In this document: piece by piece, positions 4,725-45,119 of the stretch
How positions within the stretch are numbered: the stretch's first letter is position 1
Layout of the letters: each line of letters begins with the position of its first letter
NCBI GenBank assembly: GCA_051294905.1
Contig: CM119371.1
Span: forward strand, 15,502,001 to 15,566,000
DNA from: Botryllus schlosseri
Taxonomy: Eukaryota
Direction of reading: 5' to 3'
DNA: 64,000 bases
Program-made: the position numbers and the translations under genes
The notes under the pieces: generated by a model
Database searches by the model: none
What the model was told of the DNA's origin: nothing
The model's input: only the letters and a program-made list of their open reading frames with translations

Positions 4725-4736
4725 TGGCGACGAGGA
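4725..4736 (+). promoter_or_regulatory. Primer binding site, complementary to a tRNA-Ser 3' end
   Basis: TGGCGACGAGGA 1 nt after the 5' LTR; reverse complement TCCTCGTCGCCA matches the animal tRNA-Ser(GCU) 3' end. Confidence 0.8.
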
Positions 4737-4778
4737 CAAATCGGATATACTATCGCATCGCAACGCAACGTAACCCCA

Positions 4779-7700: not shown

Positions 7701-8984
7701 ATGGTTTGGTGCTGAAACAGGACAAGATCATTCTCCCAGAAAAGCTCTGGGAAACAGCTATCAACAAAGCAGACCAAGGAGGTCATCCAGGAATGTGCAA
7801 TCTGAAGCGACGCATCCGCAGTCACTTCTGGATCAAAGGCTTGAATGAGTTGGTGGAACAGAAAATCAGATCCTGTACGTTGTGCCAGCAATTTACACTG
7901 CCAGGCAGCAAACAGCCACAGAAACTCATTATGCCGCCTAAACAAACCTGGCATGAAGTCAGCATAGACTTGTTTGGGCCAATGCCGGATAAACGTCACG
8001 CAGTGGTGGTGCAAGACCTGACGACACGGTTTCCTGATGCGACAATCGTCAAAAGTACCGCAGCTAAGCATGTTATTCCTGCAATAGCGAACACATACGC
8101 TCATTATGGTCAACCTAATACTCATAGGACTGACAATGGCCCTCTGTTCAATTCAAAAGAATTTGCTGAATTTTCAAGTAAGCACGGAATCGACCACAAA
8201 AAGACGTATCCGTACCATCCACAAGCCAACCCTGTAGAGACTTTTATGAAGCCTCTGGGGCAAGGCGATGAAAATTGCATACGCGCAAGGTGTGGACAAA
8301 CAAACGGCACTGCAAGATTTCCTCATTGGATACAGATCAACCCCCCACATATCAACCGGGGAATCGCCAGGGGACTTGATGTTGAAAGGAGGATTCCGAA
8401 ACGACTTTCCAAGGAAAGTACTCAACAACAACCAAGTACAGAAGGCCTTGAACCAAGACCGTCGAACGAAATTACAAAGGCAACAAGTTACCAACAGTTC
8501 AAATAAGCGACAACCGAAACATTTTCTAATGGGGCAGCAAGTCATGACCAGAAACTACAAAAGAAGCAAATTTGACCCCATATTTGGCCCTGAGCTCTAC
8601 ACTGTCGCGGAGATCTTCAGTGACGGCGTTGAACTGATCAAGGCATCAACTGGTAAGCGGTATCGACGTCATTTCAATGATATTAAACCTTACTATGGAA
8701 ATGGAAATACGCTCACAAAACATGTGCATGCCAATCCGCCCATTGAATGGTGGCATCCGACGGCGGACGAAGTTGAATGTTCGGTAAGCCAGCATCCTGA
8801 GGAACCAAAAACCGTGTCCGAGCCGGTGATCGTCTCTCAGGAACCAGAGGCGAATGATGAGGAGCCAGCGATCATCTCTCAAGAGGCGAGCGACGACGTG
8901 CCGAACACTCATCCCGACCGCACGGCTTTGGCCCTAAGCCGTCTGGCCGATTTTAACGCGCCCGGTTTTCTGGAAATGTACTGA
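4779..8984 (+). pseudogene. gag-pol polyprotein (Gag, CCHC knuckle, aspartic protease, RT, RNase H, integrase), interrupted
   Basis: CHKCGKEGHF knuckle, DTGA protease, RT (SKLDFESAFHQ; IHDD), RNase H (VDA..ELEAMA-like LDLEAMA..TDHKP), integrase (GHPG..CTLC; DLFGP..TDNG..NPVE). In-frame stops at 5307-5309, 7365-7367 and 7419-7421, frameshifts near 7600 and 8260. Confidence 0.92.
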
Positions 8985-25529: not shown

Positions 25530-26691
25530 GAGGAGATGTGGTACCGATGGATCAAAAATTGCAAAATGATTTCGGGCCCTCAAATCTTCAGCCGAGAATA
25601 GCGGATCTTTTGGTGTCTCAACACTTCGATACAAGCTTTGATCGCGGACATTTATATGAATATCCGCCTTTTCAAAAAATATTTATAAACGTTTAAAAAT
25701 TGTTGCTCGAACGTGTCATCGGTCCCCACCCGGTGGGTCCAAAGGCCCGTGACCATGGGACCTATGAGAAATACGCTCAAAAACTCAATTTTGTTAACCT
25801 GTTTTGTTATGTACTATAAGCTAAGCTACAGAAAGCCAATGAAGAATGTTTCGTCGCGACCTTCAAGAATAAAATTAATTATATCAACTCAAATGTTGGC
25901 ATAAAACCATGTTTTGATATACACCTAAACTTACAAAATTAATGCCACATACATATTACCCGCAAATCGACATTTTGACTGTCAAATACCTCGTAATAGC
26001 GATAACACACCACAGGAAACTATGATTTACAGCCTATTAGGGATGGTGTGAACCTCTGAAAGGCTCAGGTTCGTGTGAACGCGAGCCTTTTTGAAAGGTT
26101 CTGGTTGAACGTGAACGTGAACCTCATGACGTCTGGTGACGTAATATTGCTAATTCGAGCCCTATCTTTTAATGAAGTGATAGCCTATATTAATCTACAC
26201 GATACCTAGCGATGACTCGGGCCAGCCTATATATATGTAGGCGAGTTTCTGTTGTTAAGTGATTAGTTGGTCCATCTATTTTGCTTGATTTGGCTATGGT
26301 ACCATGCATAGGTCCCCCACCCCATAAATATTGTAATTGACTTGAAAATAGTCCACTTGAGGATGGTATTGATTCAAAAAATATGTGCCATTATATACCC
26401 TGATACAAGCCCTATACTTCACATCAAAAATTATGGCGGATTTGTTAGTCTGAAAGGTGATATAGAAAAATGCAAATGTCGATCCAAATTTACTTTAGGC
26501 TACACCCACTAAAACGTAAATCATTCATCACAGACCCCATAACTCACGCAGGTCGATTTTCTTTTTGCATGTGAGGAAAGATTCTGTCAGCATGTAATTG
26601 TAGACAAATTCAGGGAGTGTAATCATGGAATTTCATGGAGAATTTTTCAAGTATTTTCGGTCCCAGAGATCTATCGGCACCACATCTCCCC
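25530..26691. mobile_element. Non-autonomous TIR element flanked by TA (Tc1/mariner-type target)
   Basis: 24-bp TIRs GAGGAGATGTGGTACCGATGGATC vs (reverse complement) GGGGAGATGTGGTGCCGATAGATC, TA on both sides. Confidence 0.65.
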
Positions 26692-26866
26692 TAAATCTGA
26701 TAAAGATTTGAAATTTTGTACACGTCAAATTAAAAATGACGATTTCCATATCGATGCTTCAAGCATCAACCAATGCTAGCTGATATGAATCAGTACTGAG
26801 CTGTCCTTTGCCTTTACTCGTAACGGCAGCTCCCAATATCTGGGTTAGTGGATTGTATGCAATAGG

Positions 26867-27390
26867 CAGAGATGGGCACAGTCCGGTTCAGGAGCCGGAG
26901 CCGGAGCAGGATTTCATTGATTTTTACCTGGCCGGACACGATCCGGATTTTGAAATGCGGTGACTGTCGAATTTTAACCGGATTTTTTGCTGCATTACGG
27001 TTAATTAGCATTGTTCTGGCAGGATTTTTTCAGATTCCGAACTGGACCTTCACCAGCCGGACTCCGAATCTCACATTGCCAGCCAGATCCGGATAGATTC
27101 GGATCCCGAAATTTGGGAATCCGCTCATGTCTTCAACCCAAAACTCGAGGGCCCTCGGATCTTTATTTCGCAAGTCTCTATTCGACATTTGAACGTGCCG
27201 CCATAGATAGTGGCTATTATAGCGACCCGCTTATACACCGTGTATTAGCCCGGAGCATGGACCGGAACCAGATTGGATATCCGGTCGGATTTTTTCAATT
27301 TTGGCCGGACCGGAACGGAGCCGGATTGCAACTTTTTCTGATACGGCCGGAGCTGTGTCGAAGCCGGATCAGTAATGTAAAACCCGGGGC
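26867..27390. mobile_element. hAT-like MITE fragments with CCGGA subterminal repeats
   Basis: Starts CAGAGATGGGC, has a GCTCATGTCT end-like motif near 27123-27132 and dense CCGGA/TCCGG; no clean TSD. Confidence 0.45.
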
Positions 27391-28996
27391 GCGAAGATTT
27401 TACGTCAATATGGTATAGGCTACATCTCCTGCGTAGTAAGAGTGGAAATGAAAGCACAAGAACTGAGGCCTACGACACCTTACGTTATACCTAAGTTATC
27501 GAAGGCCCCAAGAGAAACAAATAACTTTATGAATGAAAGTAGAAAGGTCTGCTAGACGATATAACTTCAGCGCACGTGAGTAGTTAGTATGATCGGTCGT
27601 GAGGTGGGTGGGGCTCTTATGGGCGCGGTGGCACGGTGCCGCGAAAACTCGTGTTGGCACGGTGACCCTTTTGACCCCCCCTTCCGCTCGCACGGTGCCA
27701 TTGTGTCTTATGGGCTCTCTCACACGGTAACCCTTTTCGGTATAGGGATCGCTCACACGGTGCCGTGAAAACTGGTGGTGACATGGTTACCTTTTCAGGT
27801 ATAGGCATCTCTCACACGGTGACTCTTCTAGGTATAGCCATCTCTCTCACGGAGCCTCGAAAACTCGTGTTGACAGGTCGTACTTTCAGGTATAGGCATC
27901 TCTCACACGGTGCCTCGAAAACTCGGGTTGACAAGTCGTACTTGTGTGGGTATAGGCATCTCTCGCACGGTGTTGAATATGTATCAAGTAAATAGTCACG
28001 TGATTGACTCTTAGTTAATGTGTATATTACAAATTATTATATATGACCGATTCGAGTTAATCCCAACGTTTACGGTGAGTACGACAATGATATATCGTTA
28101 TGTCTTACGGCGGGGCGGCATGCGGCTATTGCGTCTTATGGGTGCGGCCGTGAATCGCCCTTTCGGGTATAGACATCTCTCGCCCGATGTTGAATATGTA
28201 TCAAGTAAATAGTCATGTGATTGGTCCTTAGTTAATGTGTATATTCCAAATTACGGCGAGTACGACAATGATATATCGTTATTCTTATGGACGCGGCGAT
28301 GATTCGTACTTTCGTTGATAGAATGCTAGCGGCGTGTCGTACTTTCACCAAAAAGGGTGTGAAATAGTTTGCTAAATCTAGGAATCAGTCGCTTGGTAAT
28401 TAGTTTACCACGGAACCGGCGTAGACGGCAATACCAACAATAGCCGCGTTCACATATTAACACTCCAAATAGGTGTGAAATAGTTTGCAAACCCTGCGTT
28501 CGCTGACAAGATAATGTCTCAGACATACGCGACTTGATGTTACAGGCATATCGATCGCTCACGCGGTGAAATTTTCGTAAGCAGTTTGGCACAGAGCTTG
28601 ATTTCACTCGTACGATTTAATAAGTAACGAATAACAGACCGCCAGTGTCGGTAACTTGAATAGCGACAAATTGTCACTTATTTCCGCTGTAACCCTAATC
28701 CTTTGTGAAGTGAACGCTTATTCAAAAGGGTGTGATATCATTTTAAAATCCTACGACACTCACAGGGTAATGCTTCAGACAAAGCGATCCCTCATGCCCA
28801 CTCACAAGGTAATATTTCCGTAATTAGTTTGTCACAGAGTCGTCGCAGACGGTGATTCGTAAACCAACAATTTGACACTTTCTGGTATGGTCGCTATATG
28901 TTTTTGACACTTTGTCCATGTTTGACTTTAGTTGTATGATAAGAATCATGCGAATATTCAAGCAATGTATCAATTGAATGAAATGAAACTTACTAC

Positions 28997-30270
28997 CAGA
29001 GGTGGTCAGTAACGAAGTACTTCTACTTTTTGGAAGTACTCAAGTAGTTTTCCTCTACTTCTGGTACTTACTCAAGTAGATCTGATTTTCTCTACTTCTA
29101 CTTCTACTTCATAATATTTTGCGATCTACTTACTTACTTTTCGCTATTTTCAGTTTGTGAAGTAGAAGTAGTTCAATCCCCCAATACGAAAGATAGCCTG
29201 AGGGATTTCGGGCTGTTTTCACGGAGTACCAACATTTAATATTCATAAAAGTCAATTAAAGCCCAGAAATTGTTTTCCACTTCGCGCACAGTAGTTATGG
29301 GGTGACAAATAGGTTTGTACGAAAGTATCAGTGAATATAATTTAGGTACCGGATTGCTTGGTTTCGCTCTCATCGTATTGTCGCCCATATCAAATATTTC
29401 ATCACAGTAAATATGGCCCACCATAACGTTTGAAACTACCGTTTCGCAATCTAGCAAATCCCTATCATTTCGTAATTAGCAGCCCATGACGTGTCCTGCT
29501 AATCTGGAAAATCCGGCTTCTTTAAACGTTACACCTGTTTTAGCAGATCACATTTGAAGTTTTATGGACAAAAGACATGAAATATATTTTCCGCTTTTTA
29601 GAAGAGGTCATTGTATTTCACTTTCAATTCCGAGTATCATACTTAGAGTTCTGATTACTTTCAGTTATTTTGACTGCAGAACATACATGTTGAAGCATAA
29701 AAACAAGCGTAGTATTTTCCGAAAATGAAGTTACACTAAATATAACTTTTATGATCCACAATATTTGTTTTTAACGTATACTAATCGGGCAAAGTGTTGA
29801 AACCGTATCCGATACAGCTTCTACGTATTGCCCTTCGCCTAAACTTGGGGCCTTATAATATGGGGTAGGGCGCCATGCCATGATATTCTCAAAAAAGGGG
29901 TTTTCTAGTAAACAAAGAGTTAGTATCACATTTTTATATCAATACTATAATTTGCATCCCATGATGCGAAAGAATATGCTTATTCTGCCGAAAATTGATA
30001 CCTCCTGGTATGCATTAATACGAATCAAGCTCTCTGCACCTTCCGCATAGCTCAATTTGCAGCTTTTGACAGTCCATGCGAACGAATTAAGACTGTTTTC
30101 AAAACTACTTACTTACTTGAGTAGATTTAAAGTCACTCAATTCTACTTCTACTTCAAGTAGTTTTATCTGGCTTATGGAAGAAGTACTTCTACTCGTACT
30201 TGAGTAGATTTTTTCGTCGCTACTTCTACTTCTACTTGAGTAGCTTTCTTGACTACTTTGACCACCTCTG
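28997..30270. mobile_element. hAT non-autonomous element (AGTAGA/TACTTC-repeat family) in the left arm only
   Basis: TIR CAGAGGTGGTCA / TGACCACCTCTG; perfect TSD CTTACTAC; empty site GTAGTAAG at 41651-41658 in the right arm. Confidence 0.95.
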
Positions 30271-33200
30271 CTTACTACACAGCTCAAGTTGATTCGTATT
30301 TGAATGTGTTGATCCGGTACAATTCTAATTAATTTGAGAAATCTTTTTAACGTGATCTTTTGATTCGACCGTAACCTGAATATTACTGACGCCGACTTTC
30401 AGTCACATTGAATTATTCACACATTCCACGCCGCTGTTTTAACAGTTATAGAATCAATACCAACTATCTCTAACCCGATAATATTCAATCATTTTGGTAA
30501 TTTACCAACTTTAAGTCCATTCGCGGATGTACTAAAGGTAAATCCAAACAATCCAAAATGAAATATTTGGACTTTGACATAGTCTGAATTGAAATAGATT
30601 GACAAACATGACTACCAACTTTCCCGCAGTCCCATTTCGATATTATATGCACATTGATTTGAAACAAGTAATGAAACATTGCAACTCTATTCGCGATCCC
30701 GCTTTCCGTTTGTCAAAGAGATATTTTAACATCTTACCATACTCAAAAGAATTCTTCACAACATTAACAATTGTTAAAAATCTAGTTTTCACTTACTTGA
30801 TTATATCACTACAACTCACAAACTTGAATTAATTCATCCTGGCTGTATTCGTATGATCGGTCTTTTTTATTCGATTGTAGAGGTCGTTACTATTCTGAAG
30901 ACAAAGTATTTACTAATCGGTACATATACGATTTGACTTGGACATATTATATTTTGAGTATACGAGATTTGAATGTCCGAACAATAACTGAGAATTAATT
31001 TATCACAATTAAATCCGTATATTACAGCGTAAAAGATATTGGGGTGTCAGCAACTCTGTACGGTCGTAGTTACAACCACATTAACTAATCTACCCAGGCA
31101 ACTCGTCATGATCATTCCTGAAATCAACACAAATATGACCACTGACTTGAGTTAACCACAAAACAGCATCAAGTTTTAAATCCACTTGTAGCTTACGGAT
31201 TATTTGAATGCTGGTTATGTTTTGTTGTAATTGAGTTAACGGAAATACTATTACGTCTCGACATCTGACCATCTTACCATATTCAAAGAATCAACCACGA
31301 AAACATTGTCAAGTAAATCCGTTAACCGACCAACTCAACAATATCAATATGAAAAACAGCCAAACATACACGAATCCATACAAGCACTAAAACCTAAAAT
31401 CCATAACAAGCCTGGTTGTATTCATATCCCTACATGTCTTTTTTATTCAACTTGAAAAGTCGTTACTATTCTGTAAGACAAAGAAATTACTATGCGGTAT
31501 ATTTTGTAAGATAAAAGTAATTACTTCTCGGTGCCCGCGACTTGAGATTAACATAATATGTTTGAGTATGCGAGATTTGAATGTCTGCCCAACATGTTGA
31601 GAATTCATTTCTTACAATCGAACGCAGGTGTTATATTGAAAATTATCATGATGTAAACATAAGGATTGACACATTGATTTGACATATGTAATAGTTGATC
31701 ATGACTTGACTATTAAATTATTTGCGTTAATTAGACCCGGCGTTGTGGTAAAGATTATTGTGACAGCAACAAACTTTTCAGTACCATTGTTATTAACATA
31801 TTGAGTTGTAAACTATGTGTGTCTAAAATGTTCTCGATTGGAAAATTATTCAGCCTTGGTACAAACCACGCAGAGTATTGTGGATATCAGGAAATATTTT
31901 ACAAATGTCTGCAGTAAACAAGACTAAAGATGAAACAACAATTTCCTTTGTTGAACAATAACCGGTGCAATACTTTATTGTCGGTGAGAATTGAAACACT
32001 TTCGCGCATTACCTGGTGTCAAGATATCACACTAGGTGAATTGACATACCACCATTTGATTAATGCTTAATCCGTTCGCATCATTTCTCACTCACTTTGA
32101 TCATTACAAAAGTAAATTGGAATATGTTTGCCAGGCACCACCTATTCAACTATACTTGAGTAATACAGAAACCTCTCAGCATTAATAAAATCGAAATGTG
32201 CGCTACACTGAAATCTACAAAAATGTGTTTGTATTGCTGTTCGTAGTAGCGATATCGATTTGAACCTCCATCATCTAACCAAACTACTGAGAGTCGTTGT
32301 CAATTTACATGACGTTCACTGATTACATACTAGAACTATTTGTGCAACGCACACGATCAGAGAAATTGGACATTTTTCCATTGCCATTCGTCAAAGTAAA
32401 TGTCGTCACAATAATCAGTCACTAAAAGACCATATACTTGTATGTGATTGAATCGCCGACAATTAACTCGGTAAATCAAACCCCTGAGAAATTTCACTCA
32501 GTCATTGGATAGGAAACAGCGTCGCTTAATCGGTGTGAGTCGTTTTTTCTAAATACTAATCATATCTGTCCAGCCAAGAACAATTTTCACTCACTTGGGT
32601 AACGAAACCAGTGTCCGATATCAATACAAGATATTTTCGTCACACAAAAATAATCAACTTCACTCGATATTCCCGTACTACGAAACTGTACAAAGGTTAC
32701 ATGTTTTTGTATGACATGGAATTAATACCGATCGAAGTAACCGTATTGGAGATAACTTTTAAACAAACACACTCTACGTGGTTAACATTCTCGTCGATTC
32801 TATTGTGATTAATGTATACTTCATGTGATCTGGATTCATTTCGATATGGCTAAACATTCAACCTCGACGGATACGAATTGTCACACACTCAAGTAATATC
32901 ATACCAAATAGTTATTTACAAGACACAGAAAATTTGTTTTGGTCGTTTCGACTTTATTACTGGAGATACTCATCACTTCGCTTAATACAATCTAGATTTA
33001 AACTCCATCGAACCTTTGGTGTCTATCGTTTTGCTGGATACGAATTATGTTAGTCTAAGAGTACACAATTTTCACTATCTTGGGTTATGAACTCAGTGTG
33101 TTAGCGATCATTCAATATTTTGTAGTATCAACTAGCTACTTCGTAGGATACGGATGATCATCCTCACAACTCTTACAAAAGTACGAAGGATATTTACATC

Positions 33201-34356
33201 ACACAAAGTAATCGACTTTACTCGATATCCTCACACTACGAAACTGAATGGTTGGTTTGACTCTACAAACTGTTCTGATGTCACAAGAACTTTTTCATAC
33301 GAATGGTTACGTATCTAAATATTCAAATAATCCAACACACGACTATAGCACTTACAGAAATATCATAGTTCTTGTAACAAGGTTGTATAAGTATAATGTT
33401 TATCGTAAGTCCTACATAGCCATGATATCCGTCCGAGTTTGACTTTTAGAAAACATTATACCGACATCGCGACATCTTTCAAAATTAAAACCACGGTGAC
33501 TGCTTCAGAGACCTACCAATGATATTGCAGTAATACAGTTACTTCCACAAAAGAGTATGTATTCGACTTACTTACCACAAATCTAACGCACAAAACAATT
33601 TACTTTACTAACGAGAAGCACCGAGCCTCACATCAAAACAACTAGAAAGTGGAACTATATTAAAAAAACGTCGCTAACCTTTGTGCACCAGCTGTAAATC
33701 ACACAAGCAACATGTTTCAAGATTCTGGTTATTGAAAAACGTTAAAGTGTTTCTCCTGCACCAAGTCGCTATGTTGACGAAAGCGTATATTGTAATACCA
33801 TGATCGATTTGCATTCGTTGGTCACAAACTGTCACTACTCTAAATAATTATTTTTCACTCAAATACAAAAGCATACTTGTCGCCAATCGTTTTCATCAAG
33901 CACGAGTTCAAGTAGCTTACTTACTACGACATGAATTGTTATTTTTATGTTGTGTAAATAGGTAATAATTTATTTTAGTAACACTACATCAACATCATCG
34001 AGTTGTGCGAATAGATTTACATGTGGTTTCAATCGAAGTACACAGCACGGTCTAATGTAGATTCATCTCTATTGTACAGCAACTCGGTAATCGAAATGCA
34101 TTAACATTTAAACAACGATCTTGGTTCGTCACGCGAAAAATATCTTTACTGTCGCAACACTCTGATACTCTGCACAAGATGTGTAAATCCTTTTCACACT
34201 CACTAACGGGATACCGATGTCAAGCAACAACGTTTAACAACATCACTGACACTGAACATACGATACCTACCCAAGTAAAAATATCATTTTCACCAGGAGG
34301 TCAGTCGTTACTTGTGTACAATTACCATTTTCCGTTGGGAGTTTAGCGTTACCCGA

Positions 34357-34670
34357 GTAACAAAACCATTTTCACTTGGAAATATATGTTTTCCCTCAAC
34401 AACAAACGTTTTTCACTTGGAAATATATTTTTTCCCTGGGTAACAAACCCCTTTTCACTTGGAAATATATTTTTGCCCTGGATAACAAACCTTTTTCACT
34501 TGGAGATATATTTTTTCTCTTGGTAACAAACCTTTTTCACTTGGAAATATATTTTTTCTCTGGGTAACAAACCTTTTTCACTTGGGAATATATTTTTCCC
34601 CGATCAACAAACCTTTTTCACTTGGAAATATATTTTTTCCCCGAGCAACAAACCATTTTCACTGAGCAAC
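34357..34670. repeat. ~41-bp minisatellite (about 7 units), left arm
   Basis: Unit AACAAACCTTTTTCACTTGGAAATATATTTTTTCYCTGGGT-like, head to tail. Confidence 0.9.
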
Positions 34671-36431
34671 AAACCCCTTTCTCCCCAGGCAACAAACCCT
34701 TTTCGTTTGGAAAACTATCATTTACCTGAGTACCAATACCATTTTCGTTTTGAAAACTGACAACTACACCAGTCAATTTGATATTTTTTGTATATTGTTA
34801 CAACAGACAGTGACAAAATATACACCAACAACGACTCCGATACATTTGTGTAATCAAATATTCACTTGCTCTGATGCATCCCATCAAAATCATTGGTTAC
34901 TCACATACAATAACAATGTGCTGTTGTACATCGACATGTATGTTTTCGGAATTGGCGAATAAAGGGGTTTCTGATATGTCCGTGATGTCCGGGTTCGTGC
35001 TTTGGATTTTCCAGAGTCAAAATGTCTGAATAAAACACCTCCTTGACGATGGTTGGTATGTGGATAACGGTGTTCGGAAAACAGTTGGAATTATGTCACC
35101 CATCGCGATAACAACTCCAGGTCGAGTTTTCCTCCCGCATGTTTACTATATTGTGTCTTTATTGGTCAATGTATGTCTCGACATTCAGTTTGAAATCGGA
35201 AACCCTGATAAAGTACGTAACCGGATCCGGATATCAACTGTGAATCGATAAACCAATGAACAATATTCAAAGTAAACATGTTACACCCTGTGTTTCCACG
35301 AAAAAATACCATCCAGACATACGTCGCGCTTGTTTGCCCACGCCAGTATACGCGCAAATGGAGGTGTGTGACATTGCATGCAATGTGTTGGTATACAAAC
35401 ATCGATCCACAGACATTATCATAGCCGGTAATTTTGATGTAGATCGAATGTCACCCGATAACAATGTCATACCAATAAGCCACATTGCAATAACTCTTAG
35501 TCCGCGCTATTACATCGATATTTCGACAACGTTCACTGATTTACTCGATGGTTTTATCGTGTTGTAACATTACAAGATAGTCATGGCCCTATCTCCGGAC
35601 AGATCACCCAGACCAATTGGATACATCGGTCAATATCCGTCGTGTTGTCGACACCGAAGTTTTCTGCTGCAGCGTTTGATCTAGGTGAACTATCGAAGTA
35701 CGGTGCTCGAAATGATTGCGATCAGTCTTTCAGTCACGATCAATGGATGTCGCTACTCCCACATAACGACTCCAGATAAAGATCGTGCAAATGTCGGACT
35801 GATATTGTGATCCAATAAGGTATGTTTCTGTGGAATGAAGACTGCAATCGTACACCACAATAGAACACTACCTCGTGATTTCACACGCAATCATAAAACA
35901 CACTTTCGTAAGGGTCTAGCTCGTCCGGTGACATTTCGAAACGGTCATCGCTACAAGAGATCGGGTTGGTCTCGTCATATCGGTAGCATTTTGACACTGT
36001 CATCACCACAAGGCTATTGAGGTCGATTCTGTTGGTCATATCGAAGAACATGTCAATCCGTTTTAGAATGTACCGTTTTTCAACTCCCCACACTATAGTG
36101 TTACGACACAGACAAGAAGCGTCGGTGGAAATGATAAAACACGGAAGGCATACTTTGGTGTTATTTGATATGGATTTTACACCAGACGAACCTCACATTC
36201 GAGCGATGTATTGGAATGGCGATTGTAGTATTGATGTCCAGGGAAAAGAAATGTATCGATTTATCGGTTTCGTACATATCCAACAAAAACCAGGGTATAT
36301 GATTGTGCATGGTTCGCATATTTGACTGTGATCACAATATTGATATGTACTGTACAGTTCACTTTCACTATCGTGCGAATACCCATGTTACGGTTTCTAT
36401 GTTTGTGTGTCTGTATGTCATGCTTCAGATT

Positions 36432-39400
36432 GACTCAGAGTCATTGCAATGTGGCTTATTGGTATTGTTATCGGGTGACATTCGATCTACATCAAAATTA
36501 CCGGCTATGATAATGTCTGTGGATCGATGTTTGTATACCAACACATTGCATGCAATGTCACACACCTCCATTTACGCGTATACTGGTGTGGGCAAACAAG
36601 CGCGACGTATGTCTGGATGGTATTTTGTCGTGGAAACACAGGGTGTAACATGTTTACTTTGAATATTGTTCATTGGTTTATCGATTCACAGTTGATATCC
36701 GGATCCGGTTACGTACTTTATCAGGGTTTCCGATTTCAAACTGAATGTCGAGACATACATTGACCAATAAAGACACAATATAGTAAACATGTGGGAGGAA
36801 AACTCGACCTGGAGTTGTTATCGCGATGGGCGACATAAATCCAACCGTTTTCCGAACACCGTTATCCACATACCAACCATCGTCAAGGAGGTGTTTTATT
36901 CAGACATTTTGACTCTGGAAAATCCAAAGCACGAACCCGGACATCACGGACATATCAGAAACCCCTTTATTCGCCAATTCCGAAAACATACATGTCGATG
37001 TACAACAGCACATTGTTATTGTATGTGAGTAACCAATGATTTTGATGGGATGCATCAGAGCAAGTGAATATTTGATTACACAAATGTATCGGAGTCGTTG
37101 TTGGTGTATATTTTGTCACTGTCTGTTGTAACAATATACAAAAAATATCAAATTGACTGGTGTAGTTGTCAGTTTTCAAAACGAAAATGGTATTGGTACT
37201 CAGGTAAATGATAGTTTTCCAAACGAAAAGGGTTTGTTGCCTGGGGAGAAAGGGGTTTGTTGCTCAGTGAAAATGGTTTGTTGCTCGGGGAAAAAATATA
37301 TTTCCAAGTGAAAAAGGTTTGTTGATCGGGGAAAAATATATTCCCAAGTGAAAAAGGTTTGTTACCCAGAGAAAAAATATATTTCCAAGTGAAAAAGGTT
37401 TGTTACCAAGAGAAAAAATATATCTCCAAGTGAAAAAGGTTTGTTATCCAGGGCAAAAATATATTTCCAAGTGAAAAGGGGTTTGTTACCCAGGGAAAAA
37501 ATATATTTCCAAGTGAAAAACGTTTGTTGTTGAGGGAAAACATATATTTCCAAGTGAAAATGGTTTTGTTACTCGGGTAACGCTAAACTCCCAACGGAAA
37601 ATGGTAATTGTACACAAGTAACGACTGACCTCCTGGTGAAAATGATATTTTTACTTGGGTAGGTATCGTATGTTCAGTGTCAGTGATGTTGTTAAACGTT
37701 GTTGCTTGACATCGGTATCCCGTTAGTGAGTGTGAAAAGGATTTACACATCTTGTGCAGAGTATCAGAGTGTTGCGACAGTAAAGATATTTTTCGCGTGA
37801 CGAACCAAGATCGTTGTTTAAATGTTAATGCATTTCGATTACCGAGTTGCTGTACAATAGAGATGAATCTACATTAGACCGTGCTGTGTACTTCGATTGA
37901 AACCACATGTAAATCTATTCGCACAACTCGATGATGTTGATGTAGTGTTACTAAAATAAATTATTACCTATTTACACAACATAAAAATAACAATTCATGT
38001 CGTAGTAAGTAAGCTACTTGAACTCGTGCTTGATGAAAACGATTGGCGACAAGTATGCTTTTGTATTTGAGTGAAAAATAATTATTTAGAGTAGTGACAG
38101 TTTGTGACCAACGAATGCAAATCGATCATGGTATTACAATATACGCTTTCGTCAACATAGCGACTTGGTGCAGGAGAAACACTTTAACGTTTTTCAATAA
38201 CCAGAATCTTGAAACATGTTGCTTGTGTGATTTACAGCTGGTGCACAAAGGTTAGCGACGTTTTTTTAATATAGTTCCACTTTCTAGTTGTTTTGATGTG
38301 AGGCTCGGTGCTTCTCGTTAGTAAAGTAAATTGTTTTGTGCGTTAGATTTGTGGTAACTAAGTCGAATACATACTCTTTTGTGGAAGTAACTGTATTACT
38401 GCAATATCATTGGTAGGTCTCTGAAGCAGTCACCGTGGTTTTAATTTTGAAAGATGTCGCGATGTCGGTATAATGTTTTCTAAAAGTCAAACTCGGACGG
38501 ATATCATGGCTATGTAGGACTTACGATAAACATTATACTTATACAACCTTGTTACAAGAACTATGATATTTCTGTAAGTGCTATAGTCGTGTGTTGGATT
38601 ATTTGAATATTTAGATACGTAACCATTCGTATGAAAAAGTTCTTGTGACATCAGAACAGTTTGTAGAGTCAAACCAACCATTCAGTTTCGTAGTGTGAGG
38701 ATATCGAGTAAAGTCGATTACTTTGTGTGATGTAAATATCCTTCGTACTTTTGTAAGAGTTGTGAGGATGATCATCCGTATCCTACGAAGTAGCTAGTTG
38801 ATACTACAAAATATTGAATGATCGCTAACACACTGAGTTCATAACCCAAGATAGTGAAAATTGTGTACTCTTAGACTAACATAATTCGTATCCAGCAAAA
38901 CGATAGACACCAAAGGTTCGATGGAGTTTAAATCTAGATTGTATTAAGCGAAGTGATGAGTATCTCCAGTAATAAAGTCGAAACGACCAAAACAAATTTT
39001 CTGTGTCTTGTAAATAACTATTTGGTATGATATTACTTGAGTGTGTGACAATTCGTATCCGTCGAGGTTGAATGTTTAGCCATATCGAAATGAATCCAGA
39101 TCACATGAAGTATACATTAATCACAATAGAATCGACGAGAATGTTAACCACGTAGAGTGTGTTTGTTTAAAAGTTATCTCCAATACGGTTACTTCGATCG
39201 GTATTAATTCCATGTCATACAAAAACATGTAACCTTTGTACAGTTTCGTAGTACGGGAATATCGAGTGAAGTTGATTATTTTTGTGTGACGAAAATATCT
39301 TGTATTGATATCGGACACTGGTTTCGTTACCCAAGTGAGTGAAAATTGTTCTTGGCTGGACAGATATGATTAGTATTTAGAAAAAACGACTCACACCGAT

Positions 39401-42400
39401 TAAGCGACGCTGTTTCCTATCCAATGACTGAGTGAAATTTCTCAGGGGTTTGATTTACCGAGTTAATTGTCGGCGATTCAATCACATACAAGTATATGGT
39501 CTTTTAGTGACTGATTATTGTGACGACATTTACTTTGACGAATGGCAATGGAAAAATGTCCAATTTCTCTGATCGTGTGCGTTGCACAAATAGTTCTAGT
39601 ATGTAATCAGTGAACGTCATGTAAATTGACAACGACTCTCAGTAGTTTGGTTAGATGATGGAGGTTCAAATCGATATCGCTACTACGAACAGCAATACAA
39701 ACACATTTTTGTAGATTTCAGTGTAGCGCACATTTCGATATTATTAATGCTGAGAGGTTTCTGTATTACTCAAGTATAGTTGAATAGGTGGTGCCTGGCA
39801 AACATATTCCAATTTACTTTTGTAATGATCAAAGTGAGTGAGAAATGATGCGAACGGATTAAGCATTAATCAAATGGTGGTATGTCAATTCACCTAGTGT
39901 GATATCTTGACACCAGGTAATGCGCGAAAGTGTTTCAATTCTCACCGACAATAAAGTATTGCACCGGTTATTGTTCAACAAAGGAAATTGTTGTTTCATC
40001 TTTAGTCTTGTTTACTGCAGACATTTGTAAAATATTTCCTGATATCCACAATACTCTGCGTGGTTTGTACCAAGGCTGAATAATTTTCCAATCGAGAACA
40101 TTTTAGACACACATAGTTTACAACTCAATATGTTAATAACAATGGTACTGAAAAGTTTGTTGCTGTCACAATAATCTTTACCACAACGCCGGGTCTAATT
40201 AACGCAAATAATTTAATAGTCAAGTCATGATCAACTATTACATATGTCAAATCAATGTGTCAATCCTTATGTTTACATCATGATAATTTTCAATATAACA
40301 CCTGCGTTCGATTGTAAGAAATGAATTCTCAACATGTTGGGCAGACATTCAAATCTCGCATACTCAAACATATTATGTTAATCTCAAGTCGCGGGCACCG
40401 AGAAGTAATTACTTTTATCTTACAAAATATACCGCATAGTAATTTCTTTGTCTTACAGAATAGTAACGACTTTTCAAGTTGAATAAAAAAGACATGTAGG
40501 GATATGAATACAACCAGGCTTGTTATGGATTTTAGGTTTTAGTGCTTGTATGGATTCGTGTATGTTTGGCTGTTTTTCATATTGATATTGTTGAGTTGGT
40601 CGGTTAACGGATTTACTTGACAATGTTTTCGTGGTTGATTCTTTGAATATGGTAAGATGGTCAGATGTCGAGACGTAATAGTATTTCCGTTAACTCAATT
40701 ACAACAAAACATAACCAGCATTCAAATAATCCGTAAGCTACAAGTGGATTTAAAACTTGATGCTGTTTTGTGGTTAACTCAAGTCAGTGGTCATATTTGT
40801 GTTGATTTCAGGAATGATCATGACGAGTTGCCTGGGTAGATTAGTTAATGTGGTTGTAACTACGACCGTACAGAGTTGCTGACACCCCAATATCTTTTAC
40901 GCTGTAATATACGGATTTAATTGTGATAAATTAATTCTCAGTTATTGTTCGGACATTCAAATCTCGTATACTCAAAATATAATATGTCCAAGTCAAATCG
41001 TATATGTACCGATTAGTAAATACTTTGTCTTCAGAATAGTAACGACCTCTACAATCGAATAAAAAAGACCGATCATACGAATACAGCCAGGATGAATTAA
41101 TTCAAGTTTGTGAGTTGTAGTGATATAATCAAGTAAGTGAAAACTAGATTTTTAACAATTGTTAATGTTGTGAAGAATTCTTTTGAGTATGGTAAGATGT
41201 TAAAATATCTCTTTGACAAACGGAAAGCGGGATCGCGAATAGAGTTGCAATGTTTCATTACTTGTTTCAAATCAATGTGCATATAATATCGAAATGGGAC
41301 TGCGGGAAAGTTGGTAGTCATGTTTGTCAATCTATTTCAATTCAGACTATGTCAAAGTCCAAATATTTCATTTTGGATTGTTTGGATTTACCTTTAGTAC
41401 ATCCGCGAATGGACTTAAAGTTGGTAAATTACCAAAATGATTGAATATTATCGGGTTAGAGATAGTTGGTATTGATTCTATAACTGTTAAAACAGCGGCG
41501 TGGAATGTGTGAATAATTCAATGTGACTGAAAGTCGGCGTCAGTAATATTCAGGTTACGGTCGAATCAAAAGATCACGTTAAAAAGATTTCTCAAATTAA
41601 TTAGAATTGTACCGGATCAACACATTCAAATACGAATCAACTTGAGCTGTGTAGTAAGTTTCATTTCATTCAATTGATACATTGCTTGAATATTCGCATG
41701 ATTCTTATCATACAACTAAAGTCAAACATGGACAAAGTGTCAAAAACATATAGCGACCATACCAGAAAGTGTCAAATTGTTGGTTTACGAATCACCGTCT
41801 GCGACGACTCTGTGACAAACTAATTACGGAAATATTACCTTGTGAGTGGGCATGAGGGATCGCTTTGTCTGAAGCATTACCCTGTGAGTGTCGTAGGATT
41901 TTAAAATGATATCACACCCTTTTGAATAAGCGTTCACTTCACAAAGGATTAGGGTTAGAGCGGAAATAAGTGACAATTTGTCGCTATTCAAGTTACCGAC
42001 ACTGGCGGTCTGTTATTCGTTACTTATTAAATCGTACGAGTGAAATCAAGCTCTGTGCCAAACTGCTTACGAAAATTTCACCGCGTGAGCGATCGATATG
42101 CCTGTAACATCAAGTCGCGTATGTCTGAGACATTATCTTGTCAGCGAACGCAGGGTTTGCAAACTATTTCACACCTATTTGGAGTGTTAATATGTGAGCG
42201 CGGCTATTGTTGGTATTGCCGTCTACGCCGGTTCCGTGGTAAACTAATTACCAAGCGACTGATTCCTAGATTTAGCAAACTATTTCACACCCTTTTTGGT
42301 GAAAGTACGACACGCCGCTAGCATTCTATCAACGAAAGTACGAATCATCGCCGCGTCCATAAGAATAACGATATATCATTGTCGTACTCGCCGTAATTTG

Positions 42401-43068
42401 GAATATACACATTAACTAAGGACCAATCACTTGACTATTTACTTGATACATATTCAACATCGGGCGAGAGATGTCTATACCCGAAAGGGCGATTCACGGC
42501 CGCACCCATAAGACGCAATAGCCGCATGCCGCCCCGCCGTAAGACATAACGATATATCATTGTCGTACTCACCGTAAACGTTGGGATTAACTCGAATCGG
42601 TCATATATAATAATTTGTAATATACACATTAACTAAGAGTCAATCACGTGACTATTTACTTGATACATATTCAACACCGTGCGAGAGATGCCTATACCCA
42701 CACAAGTACGACTTGTCAACCCGAGTTTTCGAGGCACCGTGTGAGAGATGCCTATACCTGAAAGTACGACCTGTCAACACGAGTTTTCGAGGCTCCGTGA
42801 GAGAGATGGCTATACCTAGAAGAGTCACCGTGTGAGAGATGCCTATACCTGAAAAGGTAACCATGTCACCACCAGTTTTCACGGCACCGTGTGAGCGATC
42901 CCTATACCGAAAAGGGTTACCGTGTGAGAGAGCCCATAAGACACAATGGCACCGTGCGAGCGGAAGGGGGGGTCAAAAGGGTCACCGTGCCAACACGAGT
43001 TTTCGCGGCACCGTGCCACCGCGCCCATAAGAGCCCCACCCACCTCACGACCGATCATACTAACTACT
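36432..43068 (-). repeat. Right arm of giant inverted repeat (6637 bp)
   Basis: Reverse complement of the left arm minus the hAT insertion. Confidence 0.95.
37259..37572. repeat. ~41-bp minisatellite, mirror copy in the right arm
   Basis: Reverse complement of 34357-34670. Confidence 0.9.
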
Positions 43069-43698
43069 CACGTGATACGAACCCCATGCGAAACAGTTTC
43101 CAACGTTTTTATAATTAAAATACAATCGTAACCAACTAAAACCAACAACTGGATGCTGTATTATCTATTGGATTGCGAGAATAAATAGCGAGAAGCAATT
43201 CGCGTGACACCAGAGCCCATCCTTGATTGTGAATGAGTGCGATGTTTCCAGTAATCCATCGAATATGACACCAGAGCAAGTCACTCTCACGGCGCCTTGA
43301 TTAACAAAGTCAGTAGCAGTCACATTCCTAACATCCTAGACTCTAGCAATTACCTAAACATCGATTTCATAGCTAACATAGCTGTGCCAAAATGAGTTTA
43401 ATACTATTGCAACATATAAAAACTCGAGGCGCGAGGCTATTATCTCCATTTGATATGAGTCCAGTGCGTAGTAAGGGGGAAAGTGTAAAGTATGAAGTTA
43501 TCCTACGAATTCGGTACGATCGCAATTATGGGACAAAGTATCCTGTATTTTTTTTTTCGAATATTCGTAACCCGAAAACTATAACTATGTAATTGTGTTA
43601 TTTAATTGTTTGAGTGTAGAATTAATAATTATTTTCCCGGTTCTGTCCGTAATGACAGATGAACAAAAATGTATTTATATGTCAAATTAAAGATAGTT

Positions 43699-44010: not shown

Positions 44011-45119
44011 TAGTTTTGAAAACGCAGTCTTAATTCGTTCGCATGGACTGTCAAAAGATGCGAATTGAGCTACGCTGCAGGTTCAGAGAGCTTGATTCGT
44101 ATTGATGCATACCTGGAGGTATCAATTTTCGAAAGAATAAGCGTTGTTTTGCATCATTGGATGCAAATTATAGTATTGATATGAAAATGCGATACTAACC
44201 CTTTGTTTACTAGAAGATCCCGTTTTTAGAGAATATCATGACATGGCACCCTACCCCATATTATAAGGCCTCAAGTTTAGGCCAAGAACAATTCGTAGAA
44301 GTTGTATTGGATATGGTGTCATCACTTTGCGCGATTAGTAAACGTTAATAACAAATATTGTGGATCGTAAAAGTTATATTTAGTGGAGCTTTATTTTGGG
44401 AAAATAGAGGCTTTAATCCACTTGCTTTTATGCTTCAACATGTATGTTCTGCAGACAAAAGAATTGAAAGTAATTAGAACTCAAGGTATAATGCTCGCAA
44501 TTGAAACTGAAATACAAATACCACTTCTAAAGAGCGAAAAATATATTTCATGTCTTTTGTCCATAAAGCTTTAAAGGTGATTTAGTAAAACAGGTGTAAC
44601 GTTTAAAAAAGCTGGATTTTCCAGATTAGCAAGACACGCATAGATTACGATATGACCGGTAACTGCTAGATTGCGAAACGGTAGTTTCAAACGTTATGGT
44701 GGGCCATGTTTATTCAGACGAAATATTTGATATGGGCGACAATGCGTTGTGAGAGGAACCAAGAAATCCGGTGCCCAAATTATATTCACTGATATTTTCA
44801 TGAAAACCTACTTGTCACTCCATCACTAGGCCGAAGCGCAACAAAGTGTCTGGGCTTTACTTGACCTTTATGAATATTAAATGTTGGTATTCCGTGAAAA
44901 CAACCCCTAAATTCCCCAGGCTATCTTTCGTATTGGGGGATTAAACTACTTCTACTTGACAAACTGAAAATAGCGAAAAGTAAGTAAGTAGATCACAAAA
45001 TATCACGAAGTAGAAGTAGAAGTAGAAAAATCAGATCTACTTGAGTAAGTGTCAGAAGTAGAGGAAAACTACTTGAGTACTTCGAAAAAGTAGAAGTATT
45101 TCGTTACTGACCACCTCTG
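44011..45119 (-). mobile_element. Diverged, one-end-truncated copy of the hAT element at 28997-30270
   Basis: Inverted colinear homology to about 28997-30105; intact end TGACCACCTCTG at 45119; flanks CATATGGG/TATATGGG resemble a TSD. Confidence 0.85.

What the first reader, a model, noticed from the sequence alone, without database searches (positions are those of the whole stretch)
27573..43074. 15.5-kb foldback element with Polinton/Maverick ends: candidate integrated copy-back defective Polinton
Seen: two inverted arms of 6637 bp around a 929-bp spacer; ends AGTAGT...ACTACT; the 6-mer CACGTG on both sides, beyond which symmetry stops; no ORF resembling PolB, RVE integrase, packaging ATPase, protease or capsid. 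Known: Polintons are 15-20 kb, have AG..CT ends that often start with short tandem repeats such as AGTAGT, make 6-bp TSDs and normally have TIRs of at most about 1 kb. Inference: this is a non-autonomous element in which one terminal region was copied back to form both halves, like a copy-back defective viral genome, keeping both replication and integration ends and near-normal length, and mobilised in trans. Caveat: CACGTG is itself palindromic, so it cannot be proven to be a TSD from this copy alone.
Basis: partly seen in the sequence, partly recalled or inferred. Interest (0 to 1): 0.9.

Follow-up and report, generated by a model that had tools for sequence, protein, structure and literature searches.

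The report
Gene-less palindromic parasite of Maverick elements
This 15.5-kb stretch is one copy of an abundant, gene-less mobile element built as a giant hairpin that carries the ends of the virus-like Maverick/Polinton elements of the same genome and most likely depends on their enzymes to copy and insert itself.

Summary
The foldback is real. It has two 6.6-kb inverted arms (12 mismatches in 6,611 positions), a 998-bp spacer, AGTAGT...ACTACT tips and CACGTG on both sides. CACGTG is a true 6-bp target-site duplication: 16 of 16 related elements have their own perfect 6-bp duplication, and 14 of 16 fit a VACNNN target.

It is not a one-off copy-back event. Of 10 related pairs fetched, 9 are foldbacks of the same build. 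The tip motif occurs 942 times in the genome and a spacer 17-mer 701 times.

Five elements with the same tips and 650-790-bp TIRs lie where a protein-primed PolB homologue was found. The one read in full also has an rve-chromo integrase and a capsid-like ORF. Only the outer ~736 bp of each arm resembles their TIRs. The other ~5.9 kb has no recognisable gene or source.

Arms evolve in concert: 313 symmetric against 10 one-arm differences between two copies.

Best reading: a non-autonomous, near-unit-length palindromic parasite of Mavericks, mobilised in trans. Snap-back homogenisation and a packaging size limit are inferences.

The scan noted another copy in this genome earlier (e1-7786796). 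I found no paper describing such a family. New variant of a known kind.

The parts
27573..27578 (.). Left copy of the 6-bp target-site duplication, CACGTG
   Evidence: Other copies have other 6-mers at this place, so it is not part of the TIR.
27579..28314 (+). Maverick/Polinton-type terminal region of the left arm. It holds the tip AGTAGTTAGTATGATCGG and six direct copies of CACGGTGMC in the first ~340 bp.
   Evidence: 27616-28118 is 94-96% identical to both TIRs of the PolB-bearing element on C14. 28182-28314 is 97-98% identical to the TIRs of two other PolB-bearing elements. The motif occurs 14 times in the window against 0.46 expected.
27579..28996 (+). Left arm, outer segment
   Evidence: Pairs with 41651-43068.
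28997..30270 (.). Nested 1,274-bp hAT-like non-autonomous transposon, found only in this copy's left arm. Its 8-bp TSD is CTTACTAC (28989-28996 and 30271-30278) and its TIR is CAGAGGTGGTCA.
   Evidence: All other copies run from 28996 straight to 30271. A related copy lies at about 44025-45000.
30271..35465 (+). Left arm, inner segment. Non-coding and of unknown source. Contains a 41-bp x 7.5 tandem array at 34357-34663.
   Evidence: Pairs with 36464-41658. Tandem array. No Pfam, Rfam or tRNA match.
35466..36463 (.). Asymmetric 998-bp spacer (the loop), conserved in the family
   Evidence: All 40 scored genome matches run from 679 bases to the full 998 at 91-100% identity. A 17-mer from it occurs 701 times in the genome against 2 in the control.
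36464..43068 (-). Right arm, the mirror of the left arm without the nested insertion. Its outer ~736 bp (42333-43068) is the Maverick-type terminal region.
43069..43074 (.). Right copy of the 6-bp target-site duplication, CACGTG

Best explanation
The element (27579-43068) is an integrated copy of a gene-less, non-autonomous derivative of the Maverick/Polinton elements of this genome. Each end is a complete Maverick-type terminal region of ~736 bp. It has the (AGT)2 tip used for 'jumping-back' in protein-primed initiation and six subterminal CACGGTGMC repeats that may be protein-binding sites. Between the ends lie ~5.9 kb of non-coding DNA of unknown source, a 1-kb loop, and the mirror image of that ~5.9 kb. 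Shown: the structure, the family, the shared ends, the shared 6-bp TSD and the shared VACNNN target preference with PolB/integrase-bearing elements. Inferred: the element is replicated by the helpers' protein-primed polymerase and inserted by their rve integrase. Also inferred: the two arms stay alike because single strands displaced during such replication snap back into a 6.6-kb hairpin. In that hairpin every arm-to-arm difference is a mismatch that repair removes. Conversion between the arms in the chromosome may add to this. Also inferred: the narrow length of 12.2-14.2 kb, about 86% of the helpers' median, reflects a size limit of the helper, for instance its capsid, as in defective or satellite genomes of adenovirus-like viruses.
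For: Family: 9 of 10 fetched pairs are foldbacks with 6.0-6.9-kb arms or insertion-split versions of them. The tenth is PolB-bearing. TSDs: 16 of 16 elements with both ends read have a perfect 6-bp duplication (11 foldbacks; 5 PolB-bearing). 14 of 16 start with VAC on one strand (binomial P about 5e-14). Helper: the C14 element is 14,074 bp with 770-bp TIRs. Its 1,135-aa ORF has homologues at E down to 4e-166, and 2 of the 8 aligned proteins match Pfam DNA_pol_B_2, best 5.8e-10. It also has an rve + chromodomain ORF at 2.8e-16 and a 432-aa ORF whose nearest Atlas clusters carry the DJR-like domain at score 0.98, which is a lead only. PolB copies: 41 matches were scored of 428 candidates, and 27 of the 41 have no stop inside the match. 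Abundance: the tip motif occurs 473+469 times against 6+6 in the control. The spacer 17-mer occurs 380+321 times against 1+1. Concerted arms: between the window copy and the C2 copy there are 313 symmetric differences against 9+1 one-arm differences. Arm differences are 0.015-0.35% in 10 foldbacks. TIR differences are 0.31-2.1% in 5 PolB-bearing elements. Mann-Whitney P = 0.0013. Length: 18 clean foldbacks have a median of 13,565 bp (SD 486). The 5 PolB-bearing elements measure 14,074-17,263 bp. Literature, passages only: the (AGT)2 tip, 6-bp TSDs, jumping-back and a constrained size in vertebrate Mavericks (PMC8097293); the panhandle model and its use to explain restoring of terminal homology (PMC11886824).
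Against: No transposition, replication or packaging was observed. Mobilisation in trans rests on shared ends and target sites alone. The window's TIR is 94-96% identical to only one sampled helper (C14) and about 75% to the helper with the identical 16-nt tip. Foldbacks are significantly shorter than the sampled helpers (P = 0.0002), and their narrow length range could be common descent. Lower arm divergence could mean younger copies or chromosomal conversion instead of snap-back repair. Copies were not sampled at random: the foldbacks are the best matches to the window's end, and the helpers come from the top PolB list. Maverick virions have not been observed (PMC8097293 abstract), and direct evidence for panhandles is lacking (PMC11886824). 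The source of ~5.9 kb of each arm is unknown.
Confidence: 0.8

Rival explanations
1. Same element and same helpers, but the arms are kept alike only by gene conversion between the two arms of each integrated copy, as in large chromosomal palindromes. In this reading the uniform length is common descent, and no hairpin intermediate or capsid limit is involved.
For: Foldback arms are less diverged than helper TIRs. Long, close inverted repeats are good conversion substrates; this is established knowledge and was not tested here. Three or four copies with a nested insertion in one arm still have arms 99.7-99.97% alike.
Against: Conversion should in time spread or erase one-arm insertions, yet 4 of 10 copies keep them. 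Copies with insertions are not less diverged than those without. Length is held across lineages that differ in spacer (240-998 bp) and arm length.
Confidence: 0.3
2. One reading: a single copy-back accident of a Polinton genome that happened to integrate at this locus.
For: The build (terminal region, loop, mirror image) is what template switching would give. A variant on C11 with its central 7.6 kb duplicated shows that such rearrangements occur in the family.
Against: Nine of 10 related pairs have the same build, with their own TSDs and lineage-specific substitutions in both arms. There are hundreds of copies. The arm interior matches none of the five sampled Polintons: the whole C14 element, and the outer 1.5 kb of each end of the four others.
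Confidence: 0.03
3. A foldback transposon of another superfamily (FB/Galileo-like P, MULE and so on) whose ends only resemble Maverick ends.
For: Long TIRs with internal repeats are typical of such elements (PMC3573991, search listing only). The earlier scan note e1-7786796 left this open.
Against: The TSD is 6 bp in 16 of 16 elements. About 500 bp of the TIR is 94-96% identical to an element encoding PolB and integrase. Foldbacks and PolB-bearing elements share the same VACNNN target preference. Tandem repeats make up only ~0.3 kb of each arm plus the subterminal region. No transposase was found.
Confidence: 0.03
4. Assembly artefact or a local inverted segmental duplication of host DNA.
For: Long near-perfect palindromes are a known failure mode of assemblers. 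No read or contig in the runs I laid spans the structure.
Against: The same build recurs at many loci with perfect TSDs. The two arms here differ by 12 substitutions and one private transposon insertion with its own TSD.
Confidence: 0.01
5. A locus that matters to the host as a source of long hairpin RNA and small RNAs against Mavericks.
For: A transcript through the element would fold into a 6.6-kb double-stranded stem.
Against: Only ~736 bp per arm resembles Mavericks, and none of it is coding. Nothing here shows transcription.
Confidence: 0.05

Closest known systems
Autonomous Maverick/Polinton elements (polintoviruses)
   Same: (AGT)2...(ACT)2 tips, 6-bp TSD and subterminal TIR sequence. 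Length is of the same order as the PolB/integrase-bearing elements of this genome. The tips and TSD are as described for vertebrate Mavericks (PMC8097293, passages).
   Different: It has no genes at all. The inverted arms are 6.6 kb, against TIRs of 650-790 bp in the 5 helpers here, 46-1,447 bp in vertebrates (PMC8097293) and about 2 kb, gene-bearing, in butterflies (preprint 10.1101/2025.02.07.637071, passages).
SYREC, the symmetric recombinant of adenovirus 12 and host DNA, and defective genomes with large inverted repeats in protein-primed replicons
   Same: Viral ends at both termini, a foreign interior in mirror-image order, roughly helper-genome length, and dependence on a helper. The helper dependence and the virus-host recombinant nature are from passages of PMC2396429. 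The palindromic structure and unit length are recalled from Deuring et al. 1981, which is not held.
   Different: SYREC arose in cell culture and is not known as an integrated, inherited, diversified genomic family. Here there are hundreds of integrated copies with TSDs.
Hairpin/palindromic deletion derivatives of the yeast killer linear plasmid pGKL1
   Same: A protein-primed linear replicon gives a derivative made of one terminal part in inverted duplicate. This is recalled only (Kikuchi et al. 1985); one search found no paper on it.
   Different: It is a cytoplasmic plasmid with no integration. Its interior is plasmid-derived.
Foldback elements (Drosophila FB, Galileo, Tetris)
   Same: Very long inverted arms, few or no genes, and internal tandem repeats (search listings only).
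   Different: They have other TSD lengths (recalled) and P-type or unknown transposases, and their arms are largely tandem repeats. Here the ends are shared with PolB/integrase elements.
Tlr1 elements of Tetrahymena, 'sometimes [viewed] as non-autonomous polintons'
   Same: Relatives of Polintons with long terminal inverted repeats (PMC5499653, passages).
   Different: Tlr1 carries genes (helicase-polymerase fusion and others). It is not a palindrome.
Copy-back defective viral genomes of RNA viruses
   Same: A stem-loop genome that keeps only the ends needed by the helper's polymerase. This is an analogy recalled from memory.
   Different: They are RNA, arise anew in each infection and do not integrate.

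Membership tests
Maverick/Polinton (mobilisation group) | 6-bp target-site duplication | tested here: met
   CACGTG on both sides here. 16 of 16 related elements with both ends read have perfect 6-bp TSDs with different sequences.
Maverick/Polinton (mobilisation group) | Terminal short tandem repeat 5'-(AGT)2 ... (ACT)2-3' | tested here: met
   The motif is as defined in PMC8097293 (passages).
Maverick/Polinton (mobilisation group) | Ends shared with elements that encode protein-primed PolB and rve integrase in the same genome | tested here: met
   The C14 element shares ~500 bp of TIR at 94-96%. Its genes are supported. Four more elements, each enclosing a PolB match, have the same tip.
Maverick/Polinton sensu stricto (autonomous) | Encodes pPolB and a retrovirus-like integrase ('by definition', PMC5499653 abstract) | tested here: not met
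   No long ORF in the arms or spacer. No Pfam family in the 20 of 27 ORFs scanned. No translated similarity to the C14 element beyond the TIR. No ORF over 214 aa in the other foldback copies apart from a nested LINE.
Maverick/Polinton sensu stricto (autonomous) | Capsid, packaging ATPase and protease genes | tested here: not met
   Same calls as above.
Copy-back / snap-back defective genome of a Polinton | Both halves are copies of one terminal region of the parent genome | tested here: inconclusive
   Only ~736 bp per arm is Polinton-like. None of the 5 sampled PolB-bearing elements matches further in. One other foldback (C13) shares 1.2 kb with the right end of the C14 element. The parent of the interior may not have been sampled.
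Copy-back / snap-back defective genome of a Polinton | Depends on a helper for replication, and is packaged at about unit length | not testable with these tools
   Only lengths are available: median 13,565 bp against 14,074-17,263 bp.
FB/Galileo-type foldback transposons | TSD of another length (7-9 bp, recalled) and arms built mainly of tandem subrepeats | tested here: not met
   6-bp TSDs. Tandem arrays cover about 0.3 kb plus the subterminal ~0.26 kb of each 6.6-kb arm.
hAT superfamily (nested insertion only) | 8-bp TSD and short TIRs | tested here: met
   CTTACTAC on both sides and a 12-bp TIR, CAGAGGTGGTCA. No transposase, so it is non-autonomous. The superfamily assignment rests on a recalled TSD rule.

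The most novel reading that the evidence does not exclude
These foldbacks are genome-length palindromic satellites (defective-interfering-like genomes) of living polintoviruses. In this reading they are replicated by protein priming through snap-back hairpin intermediates that keep the arms identical. They are packaged under the helper capsid's size limit. They now outnumber their helpers. That would be indirect genomic evidence that Mavericks of an animal replicate and package DNA like adenoviruses, and it would be the first natural satellite of a Maverick.
Probability: 0.35. Interest if true: 0.8.

Novelty: new variant of a known kind. Interest (0 to 1): 0.6.

Why it matters
Mavericks/Polintons are thought to be viruses that replicate by protein priming, but their virions have not been observed (PMC8097293 abstract). 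A large family of gene-less derivatives has kept only three things: the ends, a mirror-image body and a near-helper length. That shows which features are needed in cis. Its concerted arms and narrow length are what snap-back intermediates and a size limit would produce, so both ideas become testable in an animal genome. It also matters for annotation. These ~13.5-kb palindromes have about 700 spacer copies and may account for several Mb of this genome, a rough product of my own. They are hard to assemble, and gene-based Maverick searches miss them.

Tried and rejected
Reads: no listed holder is on record as RNA. The three DNA-type runs are Logan contigs, and the listed pieces on the stretch are only about 80-210 bases long. 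None bridges a junction or the spacer, so there is no test of the empty allele or of the foldback by long reads. In the one RNA run laid (X23, about 6% read), 274 reads lay on 26400-36500, 268 of them only partly, and they peaked at the ends of the nested hAT-like element. This says nothing either way about transcription of the arms.

Rfam (gathering threshold) and tRNA scans of 27000-43600 found nothing.

Pfam on P0001 itself gave no family. PDB by sequence gave nothing for P0001 alone. With the profile it gave only weak family-B polymerase hits (E about 0.3), plus Vsr endonuclease and zinc fingers.

The tip pattern found nothing in viral contigs. In metagenome contigs it found 2 hits with no wider similarity to the family, so these are chance matches.

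I looked for a gradient of arm mismatches towards the loop. In the window, 7 of 12 lie in the innermost 383 bp, but the other 8 copies show no such pattern, so I dropped the idea.

Literature: three searches for foldback, palindromic or non-autonomous Polintons found no description of such a family. The only 'non-autonomous polintons' phrase refers to Tlr1. Searches for SYREC structure and hairpin plasmids gave only a secondary mention of SYREC. Deuring 1981 and Kapitonov and Jurka 2006 are not held.

A whole-genome census was not possible.

The organism was not determined here. Earlier scan notes call it a sea squirt.
Full report
**What is there**

The window is C1:15502001-15566000 of a 495.5-Mb eukaryotic assembly with 219 contigs. 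Earlier notes of this scan call it a sea squirt; I did not test that.

- The inverted repeat is real. 27573-28996 pairs with 41651-43074, and 30271-35465 pairs with 36464-41658.
- The printed '100%' is rounded. A position-by-position count gives 12 mismatches in 6,611 positions (99.82%) and no small indels.
- The spacer in perfect register is 35466-36463 (998 bp). Its outer ~35 bases on each side continue the arms imperfectly.
It has an 8-bp duplication (CTTACTAC) and 12-bp inverted ends (CAGAGGTGGTCA). All other family copies run from 28996 straight to 30271. A relative at 86-92% identity lies at about 44025-45000. It looks like a hAT-type non-autonomous transposon that landed in one arm after the foldback was in place.
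- Without it, the element proper (27579-43068; 15,490 bp) measures 14,208 bp.

**CACGTG is a target-site duplication**

The terminal 400 bp finds 46 matches in the genome, from 40 scored of 1,918 first-look candidates. Most are in inverted pairs 11-17 kb apart.

- For 11 foldback-type elements with both ends in hand, including this one, the six bases outside AGTAGT... are a perfect direct repeat. They differ from copy to copy: CACGTG, TATGTT, AACGTT, GGCAGG, CACACG, CACTCG, CGCGTT, CACGTT, CTTGTC, GATGTG, CACATC.
- Five PolB-bearing elements behave the same way: GACGAG, GTCGTT, CACGTA, CACGAA, TTCGAT.
- Fourteen of the 16 begin with CAC, AAC or GAC on one strand (P about 5e-14 against base composition). 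CACGTG fits this target on both strands, which explains the palindrome.

**A family, not an accident**

I fetched 10 pairs.

- Eight have arms of 6.0-6.9 kb that are 99.65-99.98% identical within the copy. Two of these are split by an insertion in one arm.
- One has 4.3-kb arms and a nested LINE (endonuclease, RT and RNase H).
- One is a gene-bearing element with 770-bp TIRs.
- Copies are 72-98% identical to the window copy, segment by segment.
- The spacer finds 40 matches among 40 scored candidates (679 bases to the full 998; 91-100% identity), of 1,073 first-look candidates.
- By exact pattern, the tip AGTAGTTADWWWGATC occurs 473+469 times against 6+6 for the reversed control. A spacer 17-mer, allowing one mismatch, occurs 380+321 times against 1+1.
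- Of the 40 plus/minus tip pairs listed for C1 and part of C2, 23 hold the spacer motif inside. Five enclose a PolB match. Twelve remain unclassified.
- Four of my ten copies have other spacers, so the spacer count is a lower bound.

**The helpers**

The C14 element (L021:564 to L022:7136; 14,074 bp; TSD GACGAG) has the tip AGTAGTTATATAGATC.

- It has a 1,135-aa ORF with homologues down to E = 4e-166. Two of the eight aligned proteins match Pfam DNA_pol_B_2, best 5.8e-10. The ORF itself does not reach Pfam.
- It has an rve + chromodomain ORF (2.8e-16) and a weak P-loop NTPase ORF.
- It has a 432-aa ORF whose nearest Atlas clusters carry the double-jelly-roll-like domain at score 0.98. This is a lead, not a test.
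- The PolB query finds 41 scored matches of 428 candidates, and 27 of the 41 have no stop inside the match.
- Four more elements enclose such a match. Of these I read only the outer 1.5 kb of each end. They have the same tip family, TIRs of about 650-790 bp and lengths of 15,407-17,263 bp. One has exactly the window's 16-nt tip.
- The window's arm resembles helper TIRs only from 27579 to about 28314. Identity is 94-96% to C14 over 27616-28118, and 97-98% to two others over 28182-28314.
- Further in, there is no DNA or translated similarity to the whole C14 element, and no DNA similarity to the 1.5-kb ends of the other four.
- Each terminal 340 bp holds six direct CACGGTGMC motifs: 14 in the window against 0.46 expected.

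**No genes**

- Only three ATG-ORFs of 80 aa or more lie in the element, all at the spacer.
- Twenty of the 27 stop-to-stop ORFs of 70 aa or more were scanned, and none reaches a Pfam cut-off.
- There are no Rfam or tRNA hits.
- Other foldback copies have no ORF above 214 aa apart from the nested LINE.

**Concerted arms**

A four-way alignment of the inner 5.2 kb of both arms of the window copy and of the C2 copy has 313 sites where both arms of one copy differ from both arms of the other. Only 9 and 1 sites differ in a single arm. Lineages therefore fix changes in both arms, and some process copies one arm onto the other far faster than mutation.

Arm differences are 0.015-0.35% in 10 foldbacks (median 0.13%). 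TIR differences are 0.31-2.1% in the 5 PolB-bearing elements (median 0.63%). Mann-Whitney P = 0.0013. The samples were not random.

**Length**

Eighteen spacer-bearing pairs without obvious extra DNA measure 12,220-14,178 bp (median 13,565, SD 486). The five PolB-bearing elements measure 14,074-17,263 bp (median 15,791). Lineages with spacers of 240, 663, 686 and 998 bp all end up at 13.3-14.2 kb. The foldbacks are thus somewhat shorter than their helpers but far from the miniature size usual for non-autonomous DNA transposons.

**How it most likely works**

Shown: ends, TSD length and target preference are shared with PolB/integrase elements of the same genome, and there is no coding capacity.

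Inferred, from what is established for protein-primed replicons and proposed for Mavericks (PMC8097293 and PMC11886824, passages only):

- The helpers' polymerase starts at the (AGT)2 tips by jumping back, and displaces a single strand.
- In ordinary elements that strand is thought to form a panhandle through its TIRs. In a foldback it would snap into a 6.6-kb hairpin.
- That hairpin restores a duplex origin and turns every arm difference into a repairable mismatch. The integrase then inserts the duplex with a 6-bp duplication.
- Conversion between the arms in the chromosome is a rival or additional source of homogeneity. The present data do not separate the two.
- The near-helper length suggests a size limit such as a capsid. 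This is the weakest step.

**Comparison with what is known**

The element is not a Polinton by the gene-based definition (PMC5499653 abstract). It belongs to their mobilisation group.

- The nearest analogue I know is the adenovirus 12 'symmetric recombinant' SYREC. It has viral ends, a host interior in mirror order, unit length and helper dependence.
- Only its recombinant nature and helper need were seen in print (PMC2396429, passages). The rest is recalled.
- Drosophila FB/Galileo-type foldbacks look alike but fail on TSD length and arm make-up, and no transposase was found.
- Three literature searches found no description of gene-less palindromic Polinton derivatives.
- The scan itself noted another copy 9.49 Mb upstream in this genome (e1-7786796) and left the Maverick link open. 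Here that link is made through shared TIRs, TSDs and target sites.

**Verdict**

- It is wrong in treating the element as a local copy-back event, and unproven on the origin of the arms.
- This is a new variant of a known kind, of moderate to high interest.

Noticed in passing
window 28997-30270 and about 44025-45000: Two copies (86-92% alike, inverted) of a ~1.27-kb non-coding element with an 8-bp TSD and CAGAGGTGGTCA ends, probably a hAT-type MITE. One sits inside the foldback's left arm. RNA reads of run X23 pile up at its ends with loose ends, so other copies of it lie in transcripts.
   Followed up: partly
window 4725-8984: LTR-retrotransposon-type ORFs: aspartyl protease, RT, RNase H, then an integrase zinc-binding domain and rve.
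   Followed up: no
window 1995-3329: Open frame with BTB, BACK and Kelch domains (a Kelch-like protein gene or exon).
   Followed up: no
L041-L043 (G000:C11:19810823-19830395): A family member whose central 7.6 kb (part of one arm, the spacer, part of the other arm) is present twice in tandem. It gives two spacers in the same orientation 7.6 kb apart. A similar pair of spacers 9.6 kb apart lies on C14 at 15.39 Mb.
   Followed up: partly
L021/L022 (G000:C14:12144200-12159400): The PolB-bearing element is itself inserted, with TSD GACGAG, into the terminal region of another family member. That member's own tip and flank lie 250 bp further out.
   Followed up: partly
P0001 and alignment A1 (PolB of the C14 element): The PolB family profile also matches Vsr-type mismatch endonucleases (E = 2.4e-6, profile positions 795-859) and a C2H2 zinc finger. 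So these polymerases seem to carry an extra nuclease-like domain.
   Followed up: no
L019 (G000:C13, right end of a foldback): This foldback shares 1,207 bp (90%) with the right end of the C14 PolB-bearing element. That is about 440 bp more than that element's TIR, which hints at exchange of ends between helpers and foldbacks.
   Followed up: no
window 35083-35355 / 36574-36846: Seven of the 12 arm mismatches of this copy lie in the innermost 383 bp next to the spacer. Eight other copies show no such clustering.
   Followed up: yes
L030:3-4447 (G000:C1:22811003-22815447): A LINE-type retrotransposon (endonuclease, RT, RNase H ORFs) is nested in one arm of another foldback copy, which explains its 17-kb length.
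   Followed up: yes
G000:C2:20634793-20650377 and 20718146-20733730: Two tip pairs of exactly the same length (15,585 bp) lie 83 kb apart. This may be a segmental duplication that includes an element.
   Followed up: no
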